This document shows, one piece after another, positions 4,350-8,859 of a DNA stretch of 14,831 nt. The stretch is from Thermofilaceae archaeon (GTDB lineage Archaea; Thermoproteota; Thermoprotei; Thermofilales; Thermofilaceae), in assembly GCA_038727095.1 (NCBI GenBank), contig JAVYWK010000038.1, positions 1-14,831 of the forward strand, given 5' to 3'. The position numbers and the translations under genes are program-made. The notes beneath the pieces were generated by a model that saw nothing but the letters and a program-made list of their open reading frames with translations, was not told the DNA's origin and searched no databases. The number at the start of each line of letters is the position of its first letter. The stretch's first letter is position 1.

Positions 4350-4417
4350 TCAGTACGGTAATCCGTAGTGCTTGACCACGATTTCGGCTATCCCTAGTTT
4401 CTCAAGGATCCTTATGG
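4350..4417 (-). pseudogene. Probable C-terminal remnant of the acetamidase/formamidase gene
   Basis: Reads IRILEKLGIAEIVVKHYGLPY*, resembling from memory the C-terminus of archaeal acetamidase/formamidase proteins. Same strand as the N-terminal fragment at 7540-8054, and followed by a U-rich terminator. Confidence 0.6.
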
Positions 4418-4712
4418 TTCCGCGCCGGGTCATTCCCCCCTTCATGGGCTTTGGCCTCTGAGGGCCCGCCCCCCGGCCTCCCCAGCCCCGTTTCGGGGCC
4501 GTGGACGACCGGAGCGGGCGTCATGGGGTCGGCCGCTCAAGGGCGGCCTACTCGCCCGCCTTCCAGCGCACCGTCACCGGTGCGCCGAACGGCGGGGTCG
4601 GTATGCCCCTCGGTCTGCGCGCGGAAGCCCCCGGGCACTTGGCCGAGCGCGAAGCCCGGCCGCGTCCCGGGAACGGGGCCCGTGGGTTTCAGGGTGCGGG
4701 GATCCCGGGGGC
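4418..4712 (-). ncRNA. Candidate TnpB omegaRNA/reRNA (right end)
   Basis: Directly 3' of the tnpB stop. Stems at 4704-4712/4627-4635 (9 bp), 4641-4661, 4555-4596 (GUGA tetraloop), 4531-4548 and 4464-4519. Mismatches resolve as G-U pairs on the minus (tnpB sense) strand. Confidence 0.65.
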
Positions 4713-6170
4713 CTAGGCCCCAGGGGTTGGTGGTGCGGCGAACTTAGGTGGTGGCGCTGAGCCTAGGAGATCCGTGGGGTGGTTGCGCAACCACCCCCGA
4801 AGCTCGCTGACCAGCCACGGTAGCCCCCCAGCAACGGCGCTGAACGATGAAGCATAGTCTCGATTCCAGGCGATCCCGCATCGCGTACAGTGGAAGTAGC
4901 TCGGCCTCTTCCTCCTCTCCCCCTCGGGGAAGTAGGGCTCGCCCCGCTCCCCGCAGAGGGGGCAGTACTTCCCTGAGATGTGTACCTCTTTACAATAACC
5001 ACCCTCGTACCTCACCGTCACCCGCAGCCTCCTCGCGATCCTGAGGATCGCGTTCTGCCAAGGCTTCCCCTTCTGGCTCTCGGGGGAGGGCTTGTCCACA
5101 AGGACAATCACCCTCCCCCCGTACCTTCTCGCCAGGGCCCTGACAATTTCGGATAGTTTACGTTCTTGCGCCTCTACCCGGGCCTTGTGGGCTTTGTGAA
5201 TGGTGCGTACGATGTCTCTTGCGTTGCTCGGAAGGGGCGGCAGCTCCGGGAGGAGCTCCCGGAGCCTCTCGTAAGACTCGCGTAGGCGGGCGTAGGTAAG
5301 CGGCGACTGGCGCCCCCTGTGTACGTTGGTACTTAGTGCTGCAAAGCTTTGCAGCAGCTTTATCAGCCTCCATGATTTTCGTGAAAACTTGATCCTTTGG
5401 CGTAGAACCCTCTTCACCCCGTCGCTGACCTCGAAGGCGAGCATTGTGATCCCATGGCGGGCGTTGATGTCCACCCCCACGACCACGAACGGTCGTGGGA
5501 GGCGGACGTCCCTGAAGTCCGTGCATTCTTCGCGCACCACCACCCACCACCTCGGCGGGTTGCGGCGCGCCACCAGGCGAAGTTCACCGCTCTGGCGGAG
5601 GAAGAGGGTGAATACTGGCGGGGGAGCCAGCTCCAGCTCCCCCCTCAGCGCCTCGCAGAGGCTTTGGGGTAGCGGTACGATGATTGTCCAGATCCTTAGG
5701 ACGCAGTGGTCAAGATCGACGATACAGACTGCGCTGTGGGAACCGTACTCCCGCCCACCCCACCGGAACCGAACCGGCAAAGGTATCGGTGGAAGCCTCT
5801 CCGGCGGCGTCCGCTTCCCCGCCTTGAGGCGGTTAGAGAAGGCCGCTGTGCGCATCCTCTTCCATTCCTCTTTGTAGTACAGCAGTCCCTTCAAAACGCC
5901 CCCGCCCTCCAAAATCGCTTTAACAATCATAGTGTAAAGTTCTTTTAGTCTCTCCCGGAGTACCGCATTCGTTTCAATCCTAAAGACCCTGTAGCCCCCA
6001 GGGGCCTTCTTGTTTTTACGCGAGGCATGGGGGGGCCGCAGCGTCCCCTCCCGGGTTTCACCGGGCAGAGCCCGGATCCCCCCGGGAGAGGTGGGCGCAG
6101 AAGAGCCCTGGCGTACAGCCCTCCGCCCCCCCTCGGAGGTTCGGGGTCCCGACACCATCCGGACCCCCAT
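4713..6170 (-). CDS. tnpB: Divergent TnpB-like RNA-guided endonuclease (RuvC + Zn ribbon); start uncertain
   Basis: RuvC-I VVGVDIN, RuvC-II position VLVDKP, Zn ribbon CPLC...CTRC and RuvC-III NRDYA. The first ~48 codons lie in GC-rich hairpins and look non-protein-like, so the true start is probably near 6028 (out of frame) or 5930. Confidence 0.8.
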   Translation of the reverse strand: MGVRMVSGPRTSEGGRRAVRQGSSAPTSPGGIRALPGETREGTLRPPHASRKNKKAPGGYRVFRIETNAVLRERLKELYTMIVKAILEGGGVLKGLLYYKEEWKRMRTAAFSNRLKAGKRTPPERLPPIPLPVRFRWGGREYGSHSAVCIVDLDHCVLRIWTIIVPLPQSLCEALRGELELAPPPVFTLFLRQSGELRLVARRNPPRWWVVVREECTDFRDVRLPRPFVVVGVDINARHGITMLAFEVSDGVKRVLRQRIKFSRKSWRLIKLLQSFAALSTNVHRGRQSPLTYARLRESYERLRELLPELPPLPSNARDIVRTIHKAHKARVEAQERKLSEIVRALARRYGGRVIVLVDKPSPESQKGKPWQNAILRIARRLRVTVRYEGGYCKEVHISGKYCPLCGERGEPYFPEGERRKRPSYFHCTRCGIAWNRDYASSFSAVAGGLPWLVSELRGWLRNHPTDLLGSAPPPKFAAPPTPGA

Positions 6171-6275
6171 CCGCTCCCTCTGCTACACACCCCTCCGCGG
6201 GAGCTTCATCATGGGCGGAGGGATGCGGGGGGCCCGGACGGCCGAAACCCCAAACCCCCGCGGGAGGCGGCGCTG
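6116..6275 (-). other. ~160-nt rod-like hairpin upstream of tnpB (left end or 5' RNA)
   Basis: Nested stems 6270-6262/6123-6131, 6259-6247/6135-6147 (13 bp) and 6240-6228/6156-6168 (13 bp). Several pairs work only as G-U on the minus strand. The apex contains AUGAUGA. Confidence 0.7.
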
Positions 6276-6501
6276 AACCCGTCGGCAGCCCCAGCTACGT
6301 TGAGCGCGGTACTTCTCGGCAGCTTTGAGCGAGCTCGAGCAGCGTTGAGCAGCGCGGAAGTGGAGTCCGGCAGCCAAGCGGAGCATCAGAGTCGAAGCAT
6401 CGGAGTTAAGCGCGCGAGGTGAGGGAAGCAGCAGGAGCCGCAGCCTCAAACGAGCCGAAGGCGGTTGGAGCGGAACGGCCCCAATCCCGGGCAGCCTGTG
6501 A

Positions 6502-6990
6502 GCCCCGCGCGCCGGCGCGCCCCCCAGTACCGCTGGAAGCATTAACAGTGCGGTAGACCGCCCCCGGGGAGCAGGGGTGCGGCCCTTTACGCCGGCCCCC
6601 GCGCTAGGCGGCGACCCCCAGAGGATGGATGGGGGCCCCACGCCAGTGGGAGCGCAGCCCGGGGCCGGCCGTTATAGGCTGCGCCCCGCGAGGGCTAGAG
6701 GCCCAGCTTTGCGGGTTTAAGCCTGTATCCCTCCCCTCCAGCAGCCTGCCTGTAGGCTCTCGGCCTGCAGGCGGGCTGCCCCTCCACAGTTGTAGGGCGC
6801 TCGGCCGCTACAACTGCTTCACAGGCACCCCCCTACAAGGGGGACCCGCCTTTTTGGGGCGGAGGGTTGGAGAAGGGAGGGTTACAGGCTGATTAAAAGA
6901 CTGGGCCTCCAGAATCCCCCCAGTTGCAAGCCGCGCGCGGGGCGGGAAGCCCGCTTTAGCGTCCATCCGCTTCCAGTGCCGCTCTAGTGC
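6502..6990 (+). ncRNA. Unclassified large structured non-coding element
   Basis: Perfect 11-bp closing stem 6502-6512/6933-6943. Stems 6698-6706/6901-6909 and 6720-6740/6868-6890, a 17-bp hairpin 6741-6779 and a 9-bp hairpin 6787-6816. G-U pairs favour the + strand. No credible ORF. Confidence 0.55.
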
Positions 6991-7023
6991 CGCGATAGTG
7001 TCCTGCTGTCTTCGTGTTCTACC

Positions 7024-7093
7024 GCCCCCAAACCCCTCTTGTCCACCGAGCCTCAGCGGGGTTTGGGGGTTTTGTTTGCTCGGCCCGGTGGAC
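7024..7093. other. H-type pseudoknot candidate
   Basis: 7024-7036 pairs with 7058-7070 (13 bp). The loop segment 7041-7052 pairs with 7082-7093 (11 of 12). Confidence 0.5.
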
Positions 7094-7162
7094 GCACCTG
7101 TTAGGCTTATGGAGTGCATGTATTTATTCCTAACTCCAGTTTGACGCTGTGAGGGGGATGGG

Positions 7163-7387
7163 ATGTGCACCACGGCTTGCAGTCTGAGCTTCTTCACGCT
7201 GCCGGGTTGCACGGAGGGGTTCAGGGTGAGCTTGAGGTTGAGCAACATCACTGAGGCTCTTGAAGCGTTCATGATGGCTGGGTTGAGGCCGGGGAGCATT
7301 GCGTTCACGCGCGGGGAGGGGAGAGCGGTCTTAATCCAGCTGAGAGGGGGGTGGCTGAAGGCGTATGTAGCCGCAGCCCTAGAGTGA
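7163..7387 (+). CDS. Small hypothetical protein (74 aa)
   Basis: GAGGGGG SD-like sequence at 7151-7157, AT-rich TATTTATT at 7121-7128, host-like codons, and a pyrimidine-rich tract after the stop. No family recognised. Confidence 0.5.
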   Translation: MCTTACSLSFFTLPGCTEGFRVSLRLSNITEALEAFMMAGLRPGSIAFTRGEGRAVLIQLRGGWLKAYVAAALE

Positions 7388-7539
7388 GAGGAAGCGGGGT
7401 GCTTCATTCCATTTCTACTCTTCTTTCCCCGCTTGACCCCCAAAGCGCGGGGGAGCGGTGGGGCGCGGCAGGAAGGTGAAGAGGAGCAGCCAGAGGCGCG
7501 CGACCGAAGAAGACGGGAGCGCTTGAGCGAAAATATGAA

Positions 7540-8054
7540 CAAGTGGGCTCCCTCGGCGATCCTTCTGGCGAGCTCCCGGTTCACCGTAAGGCCCACCCTG
7601 CGGGCTTCGTCGAAGACCATCGTGTAACCGTGAACCATCCTGAAGGGCGACGCGGGGGACCCGCACCTCTTGCACCTCACAGCTTCCTCGCCGGTGCCGG
7701 AAACCTCGAACTCAGGCCAAGGCTCCCTGCAGACCGGGCACCTCTTCGCAACGTAGGGGTCGCCCACGAACGCTCCGTCCACGGGCCTATCGACGCCCGA
7801 CGAGGAGGCTTTGGAGAGAACCCTCAGGCTCTCGAAGCGCAGCACCACCGCGTCTCCGACCCTCGCCCCCTCAACGGCCACCGGCACGTTCACCTCGTGC
7901 CCATCCCTCAGCGTCGGGGTGAGCATCGGACCCCAGCAGCCGGGCGTCGTGATGAACCTGATCCTACCACCGTCGGCGACGGACCCAGCATTCTCGTGTG
8001 GGGACCTATGATGCCGTTTGTGTAAACATCGTTAAAAACCTCCGATTCAACCAT
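7540..8054 (-). pseudogene. Acetamidase/formamidase family protein, N-terminal part (frameshifted and truncated)
   Basis: GGTGA RBS and ATG 8054 give MVESEVFNDVYTNGIIGPHTRMLG. A 1-nt deletion at ~7981 is followed by VADGGRIRFITTPGCWGPMLTPTLRDGHEVNVPVAVEGARVGDAV, then CPVC/CKRC. Family-like sequence stops near 7540. Confidence 0.85.
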
Positions 8055-8106
8055 GCGCTTCACCAGAAGTTTAGGGTGCTGGTAAAAGAAGATTACCGTG
8101 ATGCTT

Positions 8107-8859
8107 CTAGGGCAGCTTAGCCACATCGACGGGTGCGCAGGGCACCGGGAGGACCAGCTTAACGCCTTCGCACTCGAGAGCCACCGGGTCCAGGTAGAAG
8201 TGGAAGGGCATCAGGTAATCGACGCCAGCCTCAACGGCGATGCGAACCGCGTCGCGGAGCGTCGAGTGGCCGTGCTCGTGCGCCAGCTCCTCGCTCGCCA
8301 ATCCTCCACCAACCTCGTGCACCAGCAGCTTGCAGCCCCTCGCCAGCTCGACTATCAATCGGCAGGGCCTCGTGTCACCGCTGAAAGCGACGGCCAAGCC
8401 GCCCACCTCCACCCTGAAGGCGAGGGAGGGAACGGTGTGGTCTGCAGCGACCGCGTAAACCCTCACCCCTCCCTCCTCAAAGGCGAGAGCTGGGGCAGCG
8501 GGAGGCTCGAGAAGGTTGAGCTCAAGCACCTCCAGGTAGTGCGGGATCCCAACCGAGGCGAAGAGCGAGCGCAAATCAATGTCGGAGGGGCCGATCACCC
8601 TCAACCTCGCACCAGAGCGCCTAGCGTGCATCGCGAGCGTCGGCAAACCCAGAGCATGGTCCCCGTGCTTGTGCGTGACGAGCACCAAGTCGAGATCCGT
8701 AACCTCAAACCCACACCTCCTCAGCGCAGCGTAAACCCCTTCGCCAGCGTCAACCAGCAGCATCAGCCCCCCAGCCTCCACCAGCAGCGAAGGAGGCCCC
8801 AACGCGGGGTCAGAAACCCAGCCCCCACAGCCCAGAGGCCTCACAATCAACTTGGCCAC
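8107..8859 (-). CDS. MBL-fold metallo-hydrolase, RNase Z-like
   Basis: LVDAGEG, THKHGDH (HxHxDH), ADHTVPS, FSGDTRP, LLVHE, HGHST and PFHF motifs. Confidence 0.9.
   Translation of the reverse strand: MAKLIVRPLGCGGWVSDPALGPPSLLVEAGGLMLLVDAGEGVYAALRRCGFEVTDLDLVLVTHKHGDHALGLPTLAMHARRSGARLRVIGPSDIDLRSLFASVGIPHYLEVLELNLLEPPAAPALAFEEGGVRVYAVAADHTVPSLAFRVEVGGLAVAFSGDTRPCRLIVELARGCKLLVHEVGGGLASEELAHEHGHSTLRDAVRIAVEAGVDYLMPFHFYLDPVALECEGVKLVLPVPCAPVDVAKLP

What the first reader, a model, noticed from the sequence alone, without database searches (positions are those of the whole stretch)
6502..6990. ~490-nt multi-domain structured RNA candidate with long-range pairings
Seen: an 11-bp perfect closing stem (6502-6512/6933-6943) encloses many hairpins, including ccc-GCGA-ggg (GNRA loop) at ~6685-6694. 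It also encloses a ~210-nt arm closed by 6698-6706/6901-6909 and 6720-6740/6868-6890. The 3' tail pairs back to three distant sites: 6961-6968 with 6623-6630, 6969-6978 with 6531-6540, and 6984-6990 with 6601-6607. Each has one G-U pair that works only on the + strand. CCCCCCAGT is directly repeated just inside both ends (6520-6528, 6916-6924). I could not match it to SRP, RNase P, rRNA or group I/II intron cores. Inference: a new large ncRNA, ribozyme or mobile RNA/ssDNA element, on the strand opposite tnpB.
Basis: partly seen in the sequence, partly recalled or inferred. Interest (0 to 1): 0.75.

Follow-up and report, generated by a model that had tools for sequence, protein, structure and literature searches.

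The report
Structured non-coding block in archaeal transposon
The flagged stretch is a real, conserved, hairpin-rich non-coding block carried inside a TnpB-type transposon of a hot-spring archaeon, but it matches no known RNA family, its strand is unresolved, and there is no evidence that it is a ribozyme.

Summary
The region folds far better than shuffles on both strands (z -7.4 plus, -5.2 minus).

The signal comes almost entirely from one ~240-nt arm, 6688-6927 (z -8.7 on both strands), with a smaller share from 6574-6687. The three "tail" pairings and the 9-nt direct repeat are at chance level. One tail pairing is broken in the other copies.

The block (6478-7144) lies inside a 3.1-kb TnpB-only insertion sequence (4416-7550) of a Thermofilaceae archaeon. 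It sits between a TATA-like box and tnpB. It is non-coding, since no indel is a multiple of three.

Its identity between W and copy C3b is 91-95%. That matches the putative guide-RNA end and exceeds tnpB itself at 79%. Paired positions vary less often than unpaired ones (p = 0.002).

It occurs only in this genome. I found no homolog in Rfam, 119 other class genomes, plasmids, phages or metagenome scans.

The strand is unresolved, and the "plus-strand only" argument fails.

My best reading (0.4) is that it is part of the long tnpB leader on the minus strand. Just downstream, a hairpin with 11 compensatory pairs sequesters the tnpB ribosome-binding site and start codon.

No RNA data exist.

The parts
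4416..4712 (-). Right end of the insertion sequence, downstream of tnpB; putative guide-RNA (omega-RNA) scaffold
   Evidence: The repeat boundary lies at 4415/4416 in own-genome copies and in relative L020. GC is 76% against 56.6% for the genome. Minus-strand fold z is -3.67. Identity to copy C3b is 88.6% overall and 93-94% in the terminal 200 nt. No Rfam family matches.
4713..6170 (-). tnpB-like gene, 485-aa ORF
   Evidence: Pfam gives a weak Cas12f1-like TNB hit (E 2.4e-4, below cut-off). Nine homologs were found, most named Thermofilum or Thermofilaceae MAG proteins. The alignment shows invariant GVDxN, YEG and NRD motifs plus CxxC...CxxC.
6121..6270 (-). Long hairpin enclosing the tnpB ribosome-binding-like GAGGGAG (6180-6174) and AUG (6170-6168)
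   Evidence: The minus strand gives -116.7 kcal/mol (z -6.25) and the plus strand -92.3 (z -3.85). The consensus of four own-genome lineages has 51 pairs, 11 of them compensatory; GGGAGC pairs with GCUCCC and GGAU with AUCC.
6271..6477 (.). Poorly conserved spacer
   Evidence: For 6171-6477, identity to C3b is 67.4% and fold z is about 0 on either strand. A 10-nt tandem repeat lies at 6319-6354.
6478..7144 (.). Conserved non-coding structured block (the finding, with corrected bounds)
   Evidence: Identity to C3b is 90.7-95.5% and to C3a about 90%. Indels among copies are 1, 2, 7, 8 and 11 nt, never a multiple of 3. The right end at 7144 is fixed by the C25 junction and a metagenome loose end. 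There is no match outside this genome.
6574..6687 (.). Domain B: 114-nt hairpin with imperfect arms of about 26 nt
   Evidence: z is -2.9 (plus) and -2.1 (minus). It is kept in the consensus folds of both strands.
6688..6927 (.). Domain C: long stem with arms of about 43 nt closing a junction of three hairpins; it carries most of the structure signal
   Evidence: z is -8.7 on both strands at 37 C, and -6.7 / -8.0 at 85 C. One compensatory pair, 6796/6806 G-C to A-T, occurs in C3b. Covariance model R1 of 6736-6872 hits only this genome.
6975..7000 (.). 11-nt tandem repeat (AGTGCCGCGAT, 2.4 copies) with copy-number variation
   Evidence: Tandem Repeats Finder. An 11-nt deletion occurs in copy C25 and in contigs of runs X1, X5 and X9.
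7024..7078 (+). 13-bp G+C-rich hairpin followed by TTTTGTTTG (terminator-like on the plus strand only)
   Evidence: At 85 C, 7020-7080 gives z -5.3 on plus and -2.4 on minus. The stretch from GGGGTTTGGGGG to GGACGCACC is invariant in 4 copies (W, C3b, C3a, C25), and C52, whose contig starts inside it, matches over the part it holds.
7121..7128 (.). A/T-rich TATA-like box (TATTTATT on plus, AATAAATA on minus), 16 nt inside the block's right end
   Evidence: Its hexamers TAAATA (18 vs 6) and ATAAAT (10 vs 2) are enriched at -40 to -25 upstream of 835 long ORFs of this genome. It is retained in the C25 copy, whose flank differs.
7149..7550 (+). Gene fragment X (7151-7384, the C-terminal third of a 215-aa hypothetical protein family) plus the outer left end of the composite element
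   Evidence: tblastn and protein searches. The outer boundary at 7550/7551 comes from own-genome copies and from empty-site-like loose ends in X1, X2 and X5.

Best explanation
The block (6478-7144) is a lineage-specific, non-coding, strongly base-paired part of the left-end and leader region of a non-autonomous TnpB (IS200/IS605-type, tnpB-only) insertion sequence in a Thermofilaceae archaeon.

Most likely it is transcribed on the minus strand, the tnpB sense strand, from the TATA-like box at 7128-7121. It would then form the first ~650 nt of a ~950-nt tnpB leader. This leader continues into the hairpin at 6270-6121, which locks up the ribosome-binding-like GAGGGAG and the AUG.

In this reading the block acts in cis. 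It would give a compact, heat-stable 5' domain that, together with the start hairpin, keeps TnpB translation low and insulates the element. The hairpin plus T-run at 7024-7078 would stop outward (plus-strand) transcription.

Shown:
- The transposon context.
- Non-coding status.
- Excess structure.
- Conservation equal to the putative guide-RNA end.
- Lower variability of paired positions.
- The covarying start hairpin on the minus strand.

Inferred:
- The promoter and the transcript extent.
- The strand of the block.
- Any regulatory effect.
For: Context:
- The block lies in a repeat spanning 4416-7550, with a full copy at 82% (C3b) and partial copies.
- In 3 of 3 copies where both sides are visible (W, C3b, C3a), it sits between the TATA-like box and a tnpB gene.
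- A fourth copy (C41, cut by a contig end) also abuts tnpB.

Conservation:
- W vs C3b identity is 90.7-95.5% in the block, 79.1% in the tnpB core, 67.4% in the spacer and 88.6% in the right end.
- Three tnpB lineages (77%, 40% and 35% aa identity) share the block at 77-93% DNA identity.
- In 6574-6927, variable columns are 21 of 272 paired against 17 of 82 unpaired, Fisher p = 0.0019.

Evidence for a leadered minus-strand mRNA:
- The start hairpin has 51 pairs, 11 of them compensatory, across four lineages.
- That hairpin is 24 kcal/mol more stable on minus than on plus.

Other points favouring minus:
- Between 6171 and 7142 the minus strand has no T-run longer than 4. The plus strand has T5 (6851-6855) and TTTTGTTTG.
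- At 85 C the whole block is 5-9 kcal/mol more stable on minus in 3 of 3 copies.
- The C25 copy keeps the TATA-like box next to an unrelated flank.
Against: - No RNA data exist, so no transcript, start or end has been seen.
- The terminator-like hairpin plus T-run reads on the plus strand.
- The inner part of domain C and the tail are more stable on plus in 3 of 3 copies. In domain C, single-sided changes keep pairing on plus in 5 pairs against 1 on minus.
- The closest relative element (L020, 69% aa) has a TATA box about 30 nt before its ATG and no such block. So tnpB does not need the block.
- Weaker A/T-rich sites nearer tnpB could be the real tnpB promoter, which would leave the block upstream of the mRNA. 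These are CTTAAC at 6411-6406, and TTTAAG in C3b.
- Only 1 fully compensatory pair occurs in the block among three copies.
- Overall, single-sided changes split 10 (plus) to 9 (minus). Long selection on one RNA strand would not give this.
Confidence: 0.4

Rival explanations
1. Selfish or neutral palindromic DNA. The block is a recent product of nested inverted duplications or a decayed nested hairpin element. It looks conserved only because transposon copies in this genome recently exchanged their left parts by recombination or gene conversion. It would have no RNA function.
For: - Both strands fold about equally.
- Single-sided changes split 10 / 9 / about 10 between plus-only, minus-only and neither.
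- Only 1 compensatory pair was found.
- The arms are long imperfect inverted repeats: about 43 nt in domain C and about 26 nt in domain B.
- The block is confined to one genome. It is absent from 22 of 22 other family genomes by blastn, from 119 of 119 other class genomes by covariance model, and from the upstream flanks of relatives' tnpB loci.
- tnpB lineages of only 35-40% aa identity share it at about 90% (C3a) and 77-83% (C41, partial) DNA identity. That requires recent exchange between elements.
Against: - Paired columns vary 2.7-fold less often than unpaired ones within the block, p = 0.0019. Conversion alone does not predict this.
- The block is as conserved as the putative guide-RNA end and sharply more than the adjoining spacer.
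- No separate copies of any sub-hairpin exist elsewhere in the genome.
- No terminal-repeat or target-duplication signature was found at its edges (read by eye).
Confidence: 0.3
2. One reading: a stand-alone plus-strand non-coding RNA of about 150-600 nt that ends at the 7024-7078 hairpin and T-run. It would be antisense to the tnpB leader and act as an antisense regulator or another trans-acting RNA.
For: - The terminator-like hairpin followed by TTTTGTTTG occurs on plus only, with z -5.3 at 85 C.
- The 37 C z-score is better on plus.
- Inner domain C and the tail are more stable on plus in 3 of 3 copies.
- A promoter-like TTAAAAG (6893-6899, plus) lies about 30 nt before the most conserved stretch, 6928-7148, which is 95.5% identical to C3b.
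Against: - There is no A/T-rich box in the 60 nt upstream of 6478 in W, and that stretch is variable or deleted among copies.
- A T5 run at 6851-6855 lies inside the proposed long RNA.
- The tail pairings used to argue for the strand are at chance level and not conserved.
- The closing stem is kept in the minus consensus, not the plus one.
- At 85 C the minus strand is favoured for the whole block.
Confidence: 0.25
3. A member of a known structured RNA class: a group I intron of the IStron type, a group II intron, an IscB/IsrB-type upstream guide RNA, an archaeal bulge-helix-bulge intron, or RNase P, SRP or a small ribozyme.
For: Only the general setting fits: a large structured RNA-like region next to a tnpB gene. 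This is the arrangement in IStrons (abstracts seen in the listing).
Against: - Rfam release 15 gave 0 matches at gathering score over the window.
- Permissive scans of 6000-8200 and 6470-7110 gave only hits of 11-19 bits at E 0.9-10, to miRNA, snoRNA and other unrelated models.
- A relaxed bulge-helix-bulge scan found 91 (plus) and 85 (minus) motifs, against 55-83 in 10 mononucleotide shuffles of the plus strand. None lies at the block's edges.
Confidence: 0.03

Closest known systems
IS200 tnpA 5' untranslated region: a stem-loop that hides the ribosome-binding site, a left-end hairpin against read-through, and the antisense RNA art200 (recalled from the literature, not read here)
   Same: A structured left-end and leader region in an IS200/IS605-type element. 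Here a hairpin with 11 compensatory pairs sequesters the SD-like motif and the AUG of tnpB, and a strong hairpin lies near the left end.
   Different: The gene is tnpB, not tnpA, and the host is a hyperthermophilic archaeon. The structured region is about 650 nt longer than any such leader I know of. No transcript has been seen.
IStrons: a group I intron fused to an IS605-type element with tnpB (abstracts seen in the listing: bioRxiv 10.1101/2023.11.20.567912, PMC4227781, PMC13521648)
   Same: A large structured non-coding region occupies the 5' part of a tnpB-bearing IS605-type element.
   Different: There is no match to the group I intron model or any other Rfam model. I know of no archaeal example.
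Guide (omega) RNAs of TnpB at the right end, and of IscB/IsrB upstream of the gene (recalled; circular archaeal omega RNAs from the abstract and outline of PMC12558985)
   Same: A G+C-rich, structured, highly conserved non-coding segment of the same kind of transposon. The block is as conserved as this element's own right end.
   Different: The block lies upstream of tnpB, about 300 nt from the gene and about 2.7 kb from the right end. The element already has a structured right end where a TnpB guide RNA is expected. The protein is TnpB-like, not IscB-like.
Miniature inverted-repeat elements (MITEs)
   Same: Domain C is a ~240-nt unit with long imperfect inverted arms that folds as one hairpin on either strand.
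   Different: There are no free-standing copies. All 5 places in the genome are copies of the block in its transposon setting. No target-site duplication was found.

Membership tests
IS200/IS605-type tnpB-only insertion sequence (context of the block) | TnpB-like nuclease with a RuvC-like D-E-D triad and a zinc ribbon | tested here: met
   D of GVDxN, E of YEG, D of NRD and CxxC...CxxC are invariant in a 10-sequence alignment. The Pfam TNB hit is weak: 21.6 bits against a 26.3 cut-off.
IS200/IS605-type tnpB-only insertion sequence (context of the block) | Multi-copy element with discrete ends and no target duplication, flanked by a short conserved motif on the left | tested here: met
   The ends are 4416 and 7550 in own-genome copies. 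The flank reads C(C/T)GA(G/A) in 5 of 5 copies with different flanks. Empty-site-like loose ends occur at 7551 in 3 of 4 runs laid.
IS200/IS605-type tnpB-only insertion sequence (context of the block) | Y1 (HUH) TnpA transposase in the element or genome | tested here: not met
   PF01797 gave 0 matches in the 92%-complete genome, while the control rang in 6 of 14 genomes. The element is at best non-autonomous.
IS200/IS605-type tnpB-only insertion sequence (context of the block) | Guide-RNA scaffold at the 3' end of tnpB up to the right end | tested here: inconclusive
   The right end is G+C-rich (76%), structured (z -3.67) and conserved. There is no Rfam match and no RNA data.
Any Rfam family (group I/II introns, HEARO, RNase P, SRP, ribozymes, riboswitches) | Covariance-model score at or above the family's gathering score | tested here: not met
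   0 matches at gathering score. The best permissive hits were 11-19 bits at E 0.9-10.
Archaeal bulge-helix-bulge intron | Helix, 3-nt bulge, 4-bp helix, 3-nt bulge, helix joining the two boundaries | tested here: not met
   Relaxed motif counts were 91 and 85, against 55-83 in 10 mononucleotide shuffles of the plus strand. None lies at the block's edges, and the closing stem has a 4-nt bulge on one side only.
MITE or nested mobile element | Dispersed independent copies with terminal inverted repeats and target-site duplication | tested here: not met
   Only 5 places match in the genome, all with the same neighbours where these are visible. No duplication was found at the edges.
Structured functional RNA in general | Compensatory base changes in homologs | tested here: inconclusive
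   For the block, 1 compensated pair was found out of 203 (plus) or 205 (minus) predicted pairs in 3 copies of 91-93% identity. There is too little divergence to judge. For the neighbouring start hairpin, 11 of 51 pairs are compensated.
Intrinsic-terminator-like element | G+C-rich hairpin directly followed by a T-run | tested here: met
   7024-7036/7058-7070 form 13 bp, followed by TTTTGTTTG on plus. Whether it terminates archaeal transcription cannot be tested here.

The most novel reading that the evidence does not exclude
The block encodes a new class of transposon-borne structured RNA in hyperthermophilic archaea. Domain C would be its core. It would be kept by selection as strongly as the guide RNA and passed between three unrelated tnpB lineages because it benefits the transposon. 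It might act as a trans-acting or processed RNA that controls TnpB, the guide RNA or transposon maintenance.
Probability: 0.15. Interest if true: 0.75.

Novelty: new variant of a known kind. Interest (0 to 1): 0.4.

Why it matters
TnpB elements are the ancestors of Cas12, and how their nuclease is kept in check is an active question. In bacteria the known answers include leaders, antisense RNAs, introns and small repressors.

This archaeal element shows two things:
- A start-codon-sequestering hairpin with clear covariation in a tnpB leader.
- An unusually large, heat-stable, conserved non-coding block upstream of it, shared by three tnpB lineages in one genome.

If the block is an RNA with a function, it would be a new accessory RNA of these transposons. 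If not, it is an example of how palindromic DNA spreads among transposon copies by recombination.

Tried and rejected
Searches for homologs of the block, all negative:
- blastn in 22 other family genomes.
- nhmmer against the flanks of tnpB loci of relatives and 2 metagenome loci.
- Exact-pattern scans of metagenome, genome and viral collections, 0 hits each.
- Covariance model R1 in 23 family genomes. Two chance-level hits at E 0.24 and 0.30 were dropped as noise.
- R1 in 120 class genomes.
- blastn against plasmids and phages.
- The search for related loci with protein X in genome contigs found no relative.

Readings I rejected:
- A coding reading. No open frame is shared by the copies, and indels are not multiples of three.
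- A bulge-helix-bulge intron. Motif counts are at chance level.
- Similarity of the block to the right end or to tnpB. Only 9-13-nt chance matches were found.
- A structured leader as a general feature of relatives. Upstream 300-nt windows of 12 loci were mostly unstructured. The window's own 300-nt pieces also score weakly (z 0.9 to -2.9, 15 shuffles), which shows that the signal is long-range. The leader of L042 gives z -0.58.
- A global alignment of the window's leader with L042. Only the start region aligned.

Expression: no RNA holder was listed among 19 runs. The four runs laid were DNA contigs only. They repeated variants already seen in the genome's own copies and gave no usable new covariation. 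A joint 6234->6522 in two runs has a 28-letter side and was not trusted.

Protein X: no Pfam or NCBIfam family, and the Atlas gave no informative hit (best 0.82).

Literature:
- 'TnpB, archaea, Thermofilum' found 0 papers.
- The IStron search listed 12 of 81 papers; I read only the listing and abstract starts.
- For PMC12558985 I read the abstract and outline only.
- No supplements were seen.

Because of the latter, the 3.4-kb contig of homolog P0006 could not be fetched. P0006 shares the window's N-terminal extension, so its contig may hold another copy of the block.

Full report
**Where the window comes from.** The window is contig C38 of a 1.86-Mb, 52-contig, 92%-complete genome. The genome carries an archaeal 16S rRNA. 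The closest homologs of its tnpB-like protein are named Thermofilum sp. or Thermofilaceae MAG proteins. Genome G+C is 56.6%. This is therefore a hot-spring crenarchaeon, and bacterial promoter and terminator rules do not apply directly.

**Checking the observation.** The 489-nt stretch folds better than every one of 100 dinucleotide shuffles on both strands: plus -289.3 kcal/mol (z -7.38) and minus -288.9 (z -5.21).

Dissecting the region shows where the excess structure lies:
- 6688-6927: a long stem with ~43-nt arms closing three hairpins, z -8.7 on both strands.
- Its inner part 6741-6866: z -6.9 / -6.0.
- 6574-6687: z -2.9 / -2.1.
- The 5' part, the 3' tail, the spacer 6171-6477 and the outer left end: all near chance.

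- An 11-bp perfect stem or longer arises in 12 of 100 shuffles.
- The tail makes 20 helices of 7 bp or more with the body, against 16.6 on average for 300 shuffled tails (22% reach 20).
- A 10-bp helix is the average best for a shuffled tail.
- One tail pairing is abolished by a 2-nt deletion in two other copies.

**What surrounds it.** The tnpB-like gene is the 485-aa ORF 4713-6170 on the minus strand. The ORF 6808-7926 is not tnpB. Its only family hit, acetamidase/formamidase, lies beyond 7550.

blastn against the genome shows a repeated element spanning 4416-7550. The copies are:
- A full copy on C3 (C3b, 82%).
- Partial copies on C3 (C3a), C25, C41, C52 and C34.
- Two ~0.55-kb derivatives that keep only the two ends (C21, C1).

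The left flank reads C(C/T)GA(G/A) in five copies with different neighbours. Contigs of 3 of 4 hot-spring runs show a different sequence joined at 7551, as an uninterrupted site would.

No Y1 transposase gene was found in the genome. The element is therefore a tnpB-only, IS200/IS605-like, apparently non-autonomous insertion sequence. Its right end (4416-4712) is 76% G+C, structured (z -3.67) and conserved, as expected for the guide-RNA scaffold.

**The block itself.** The conserved block runs from 6478 to 7144.
- Its right end is exact. The C25 copy and a metagenome contig diverge after 7144.
- From about 7149, the window continues with the C-terminal third of a 215-aa hypothetical protein family, 'X'.
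- The block is non-coding. No frame is shared by the copies, and the indels among copies are 1, 2, 7, 8 and 11 nt.
- W vs C3b identity is 90.7-95.5% in the block, 79.1% in the tnpB core, 67.4% in the spacer, 60.6% in the outer left end and 88.6% in the right end.
- Within 6574-6927, paired columns vary in 21 of 272 cases and unpaired ones in 17 of 82, Fisher p = 0.0019.

The block is linked to three tnpB lineages in this genome. Their proteins are 77%, 40% and 35% identical to the window's. The block DNA is 93%, 83% (C41, partial) and 91% identical. This requires recent exchange of the left part between elements.

**No relatives.** The block has no match in any of the following:
- Rfam.
- 22 other family genomes by blastn.
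- The flanks of relatives' tnpB loci by nhmmer.
- 119 other genomes of the class with a covariance model of 6736-6872.
- Plasmids and phages.
- Three exact-pattern scans.

The closest relative element (L020, 69% aa) is homologous only from 5892 to 4415. It has a TATA box about 30 nt before its ATG. Elements of another relative (G018) carry protein ORFs in the same place.

Eighteen hot-spring DNA runs from 7 studies hold parts of the block. The four I laid show the same variants as the genome's own copies.

**Which strand?** This could not be settled. Points that do not separate the strands:
- Energies are nearly equal at 37 C.
- The consensus fold of three copies is -306.6 on plus and -313.9 on minus, with one compensated pair each.
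- Single-sided substitutions keep pairing only on plus in 10 pairs and only on minus in 9.

Points for minus:
- At 85 C the minus strand is 5-9 kcal/mol better for the whole block in 3 of 3 copies.
- Minus has no T-run above 4, whereas plus has a T5 inside the block.
- A TATA-like box lies at the block's far end in every copy, including C25. Its hexamers are enriched in this genome's promoters.

Points for plus:
- The inner domain C and the tail favour plus in 3 of 3 copies.
- A textbook hairpin plus T-run lies at 7024-7078.
- A TTAAAAG lies about 30 nt upstream of the most conserved 3' part.

**A firmer result next door.** Folding the minus strand from 7100 to 6100 revealed a ~60-bp hairpin. 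It pairs 6270-6228 with 6168-6123, the first 45 nt of the tnpB ORF.
- On minus it has -116.7 kcal/mol (z -6.25). On plus it has -92.3 (z -3.85), because many pairs are G-U.
- In four own-genome lineages the consensus has 51 pairs, 11 of them with changes on both sides.
- The consensus pairs the SD-like GGGAGC with GCUCCC, and the GGAU of the start codon with AUCC.

So tnpB is translated from a leadered minus-strand mRNA whose initiation region is sequestered. This is analogous to what I recall for the IS200 tnpA leader, a recollection not checked against a paper here. It shows that minus-strand RNA upstream of tnpB is under selection. It does not show how far upstream the transcript starts.

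**Verdict.** The finding is a real, conserved, orphan structured non-coding block of a TnpB transposon, with corrected bounds and a structural core at 6688-6927.
- Best reading (0.4): it is part of the long tnpB leader and left end on the minus strand, acting in cis together with the start hairpin.
- Rivals: neutral palindromic DNA spread by recombination among copies (0.3); a plus-strand or antisense RNA (0.25); a known RNA class (0.03).
- There is no evidence for catalysis, for the proposed long-range tail contacts, or for the plus-strand assignment.
- Strand-specific transcript mapping would decide the matter.

Noticed in passing
window 6121-6270 (minus strand): A ~60-bp hairpin pairs the leader with the first ~45 nt of the tnpB ORF and sequesters GAGGGAG (6180-6174) and the AUG (6170). 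It has 11 compensatory pairs among 51 in four own-genome lineages and is 24 kcal/mol more stable on the minus strand than on the plus strand.
   Followed up: yes
window 7151-7384 (+); also G000 C25:15867-16244, C10:29140-29475, C1:19312-19737: The 74-aa ORF is the C-terminal third of a 215-aa hypothetical protein family (P0010-P0012, from Thermofilum and Thermosphaera MAGs) with no Pfam domain. Only fragments or interrupted copies were seen in this genome (11 matches) and in same-genus genome G014 (10 matches). In 4 copies (W, C3a, C3b, C52) homology to X begins at the same codon, about 137, and in W, C3a and C3b the block directly precedes it.
   Followed up: partly
window 7551-7926 (minus strand): The ORF 6808-7926 matches acetamidase/formamidase only in residues 2-125, that is, outside the transposon. 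The insertion appears to have cut this gene. Contigs of 3 of 4 hot-spring runs carry a different sequence joined at 7551. The other half of the gene is not in the window.
   Followed up: partly
G000 C21:15904-16459 and C1:101751-102324: These are ~0.55-kb derivatives made only of the right end (window 4417-4586) joined to the X fragment and outer left end (window 7190-7552). They look like miniature non-autonomous copies.
   Followed up: partly
whole genome G000: No Y1 (HUH) TnpA transposase gene was found, although there are at least four tnpB lineages and several copies. What mobilises these elements is open.
   Followed up: partly
window 6975-7000: An 11-nt tandem repeat (AGTGCCGCGAT, 2.4 copies). 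One unit is missing in copy C25 and in contigs of runs X1, X5 and X9.
   Followed up: partly
window 6045-6170 and homolog P0006: The first ~42 codons of the tnpB ORF form a low-complexity extension that doubles as the 3' arm of the start hairpin. They are shared at high identity with C3b, C41 and the MAG protein P0006, but not with the closest relative L020. This fits the exchange of the transposon's left part between lineages.
   Followed up: partly
L029 (G018) 180-1285, oriented with tnpB on +: Elements of a related complete genome also carry ~1.1 kb upstream of tnpB inside the repeat. There it holds two open frames (122 aa on the same strand, 147 aa on the opposite strand) and a TATA box before tnpB.
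   Followed up: no
window 4558-4600 (minus strand): There is a weak sub-threshold match to the Rfam HgcC family (15.7 bits, E 0.24) in the right end. HgcC is a hyperthermophile G+C-rich RNA family. This is a lead only.
   Followed up: no
window 6183-6641 (minus strand): A 152-aa open frame upstream of tnpB is in the same frame as tnpB, separated from it by one stop codon and four codons. It is not conserved among copies, so I treated it as a by-product of high G+C.
   Followed up: partly
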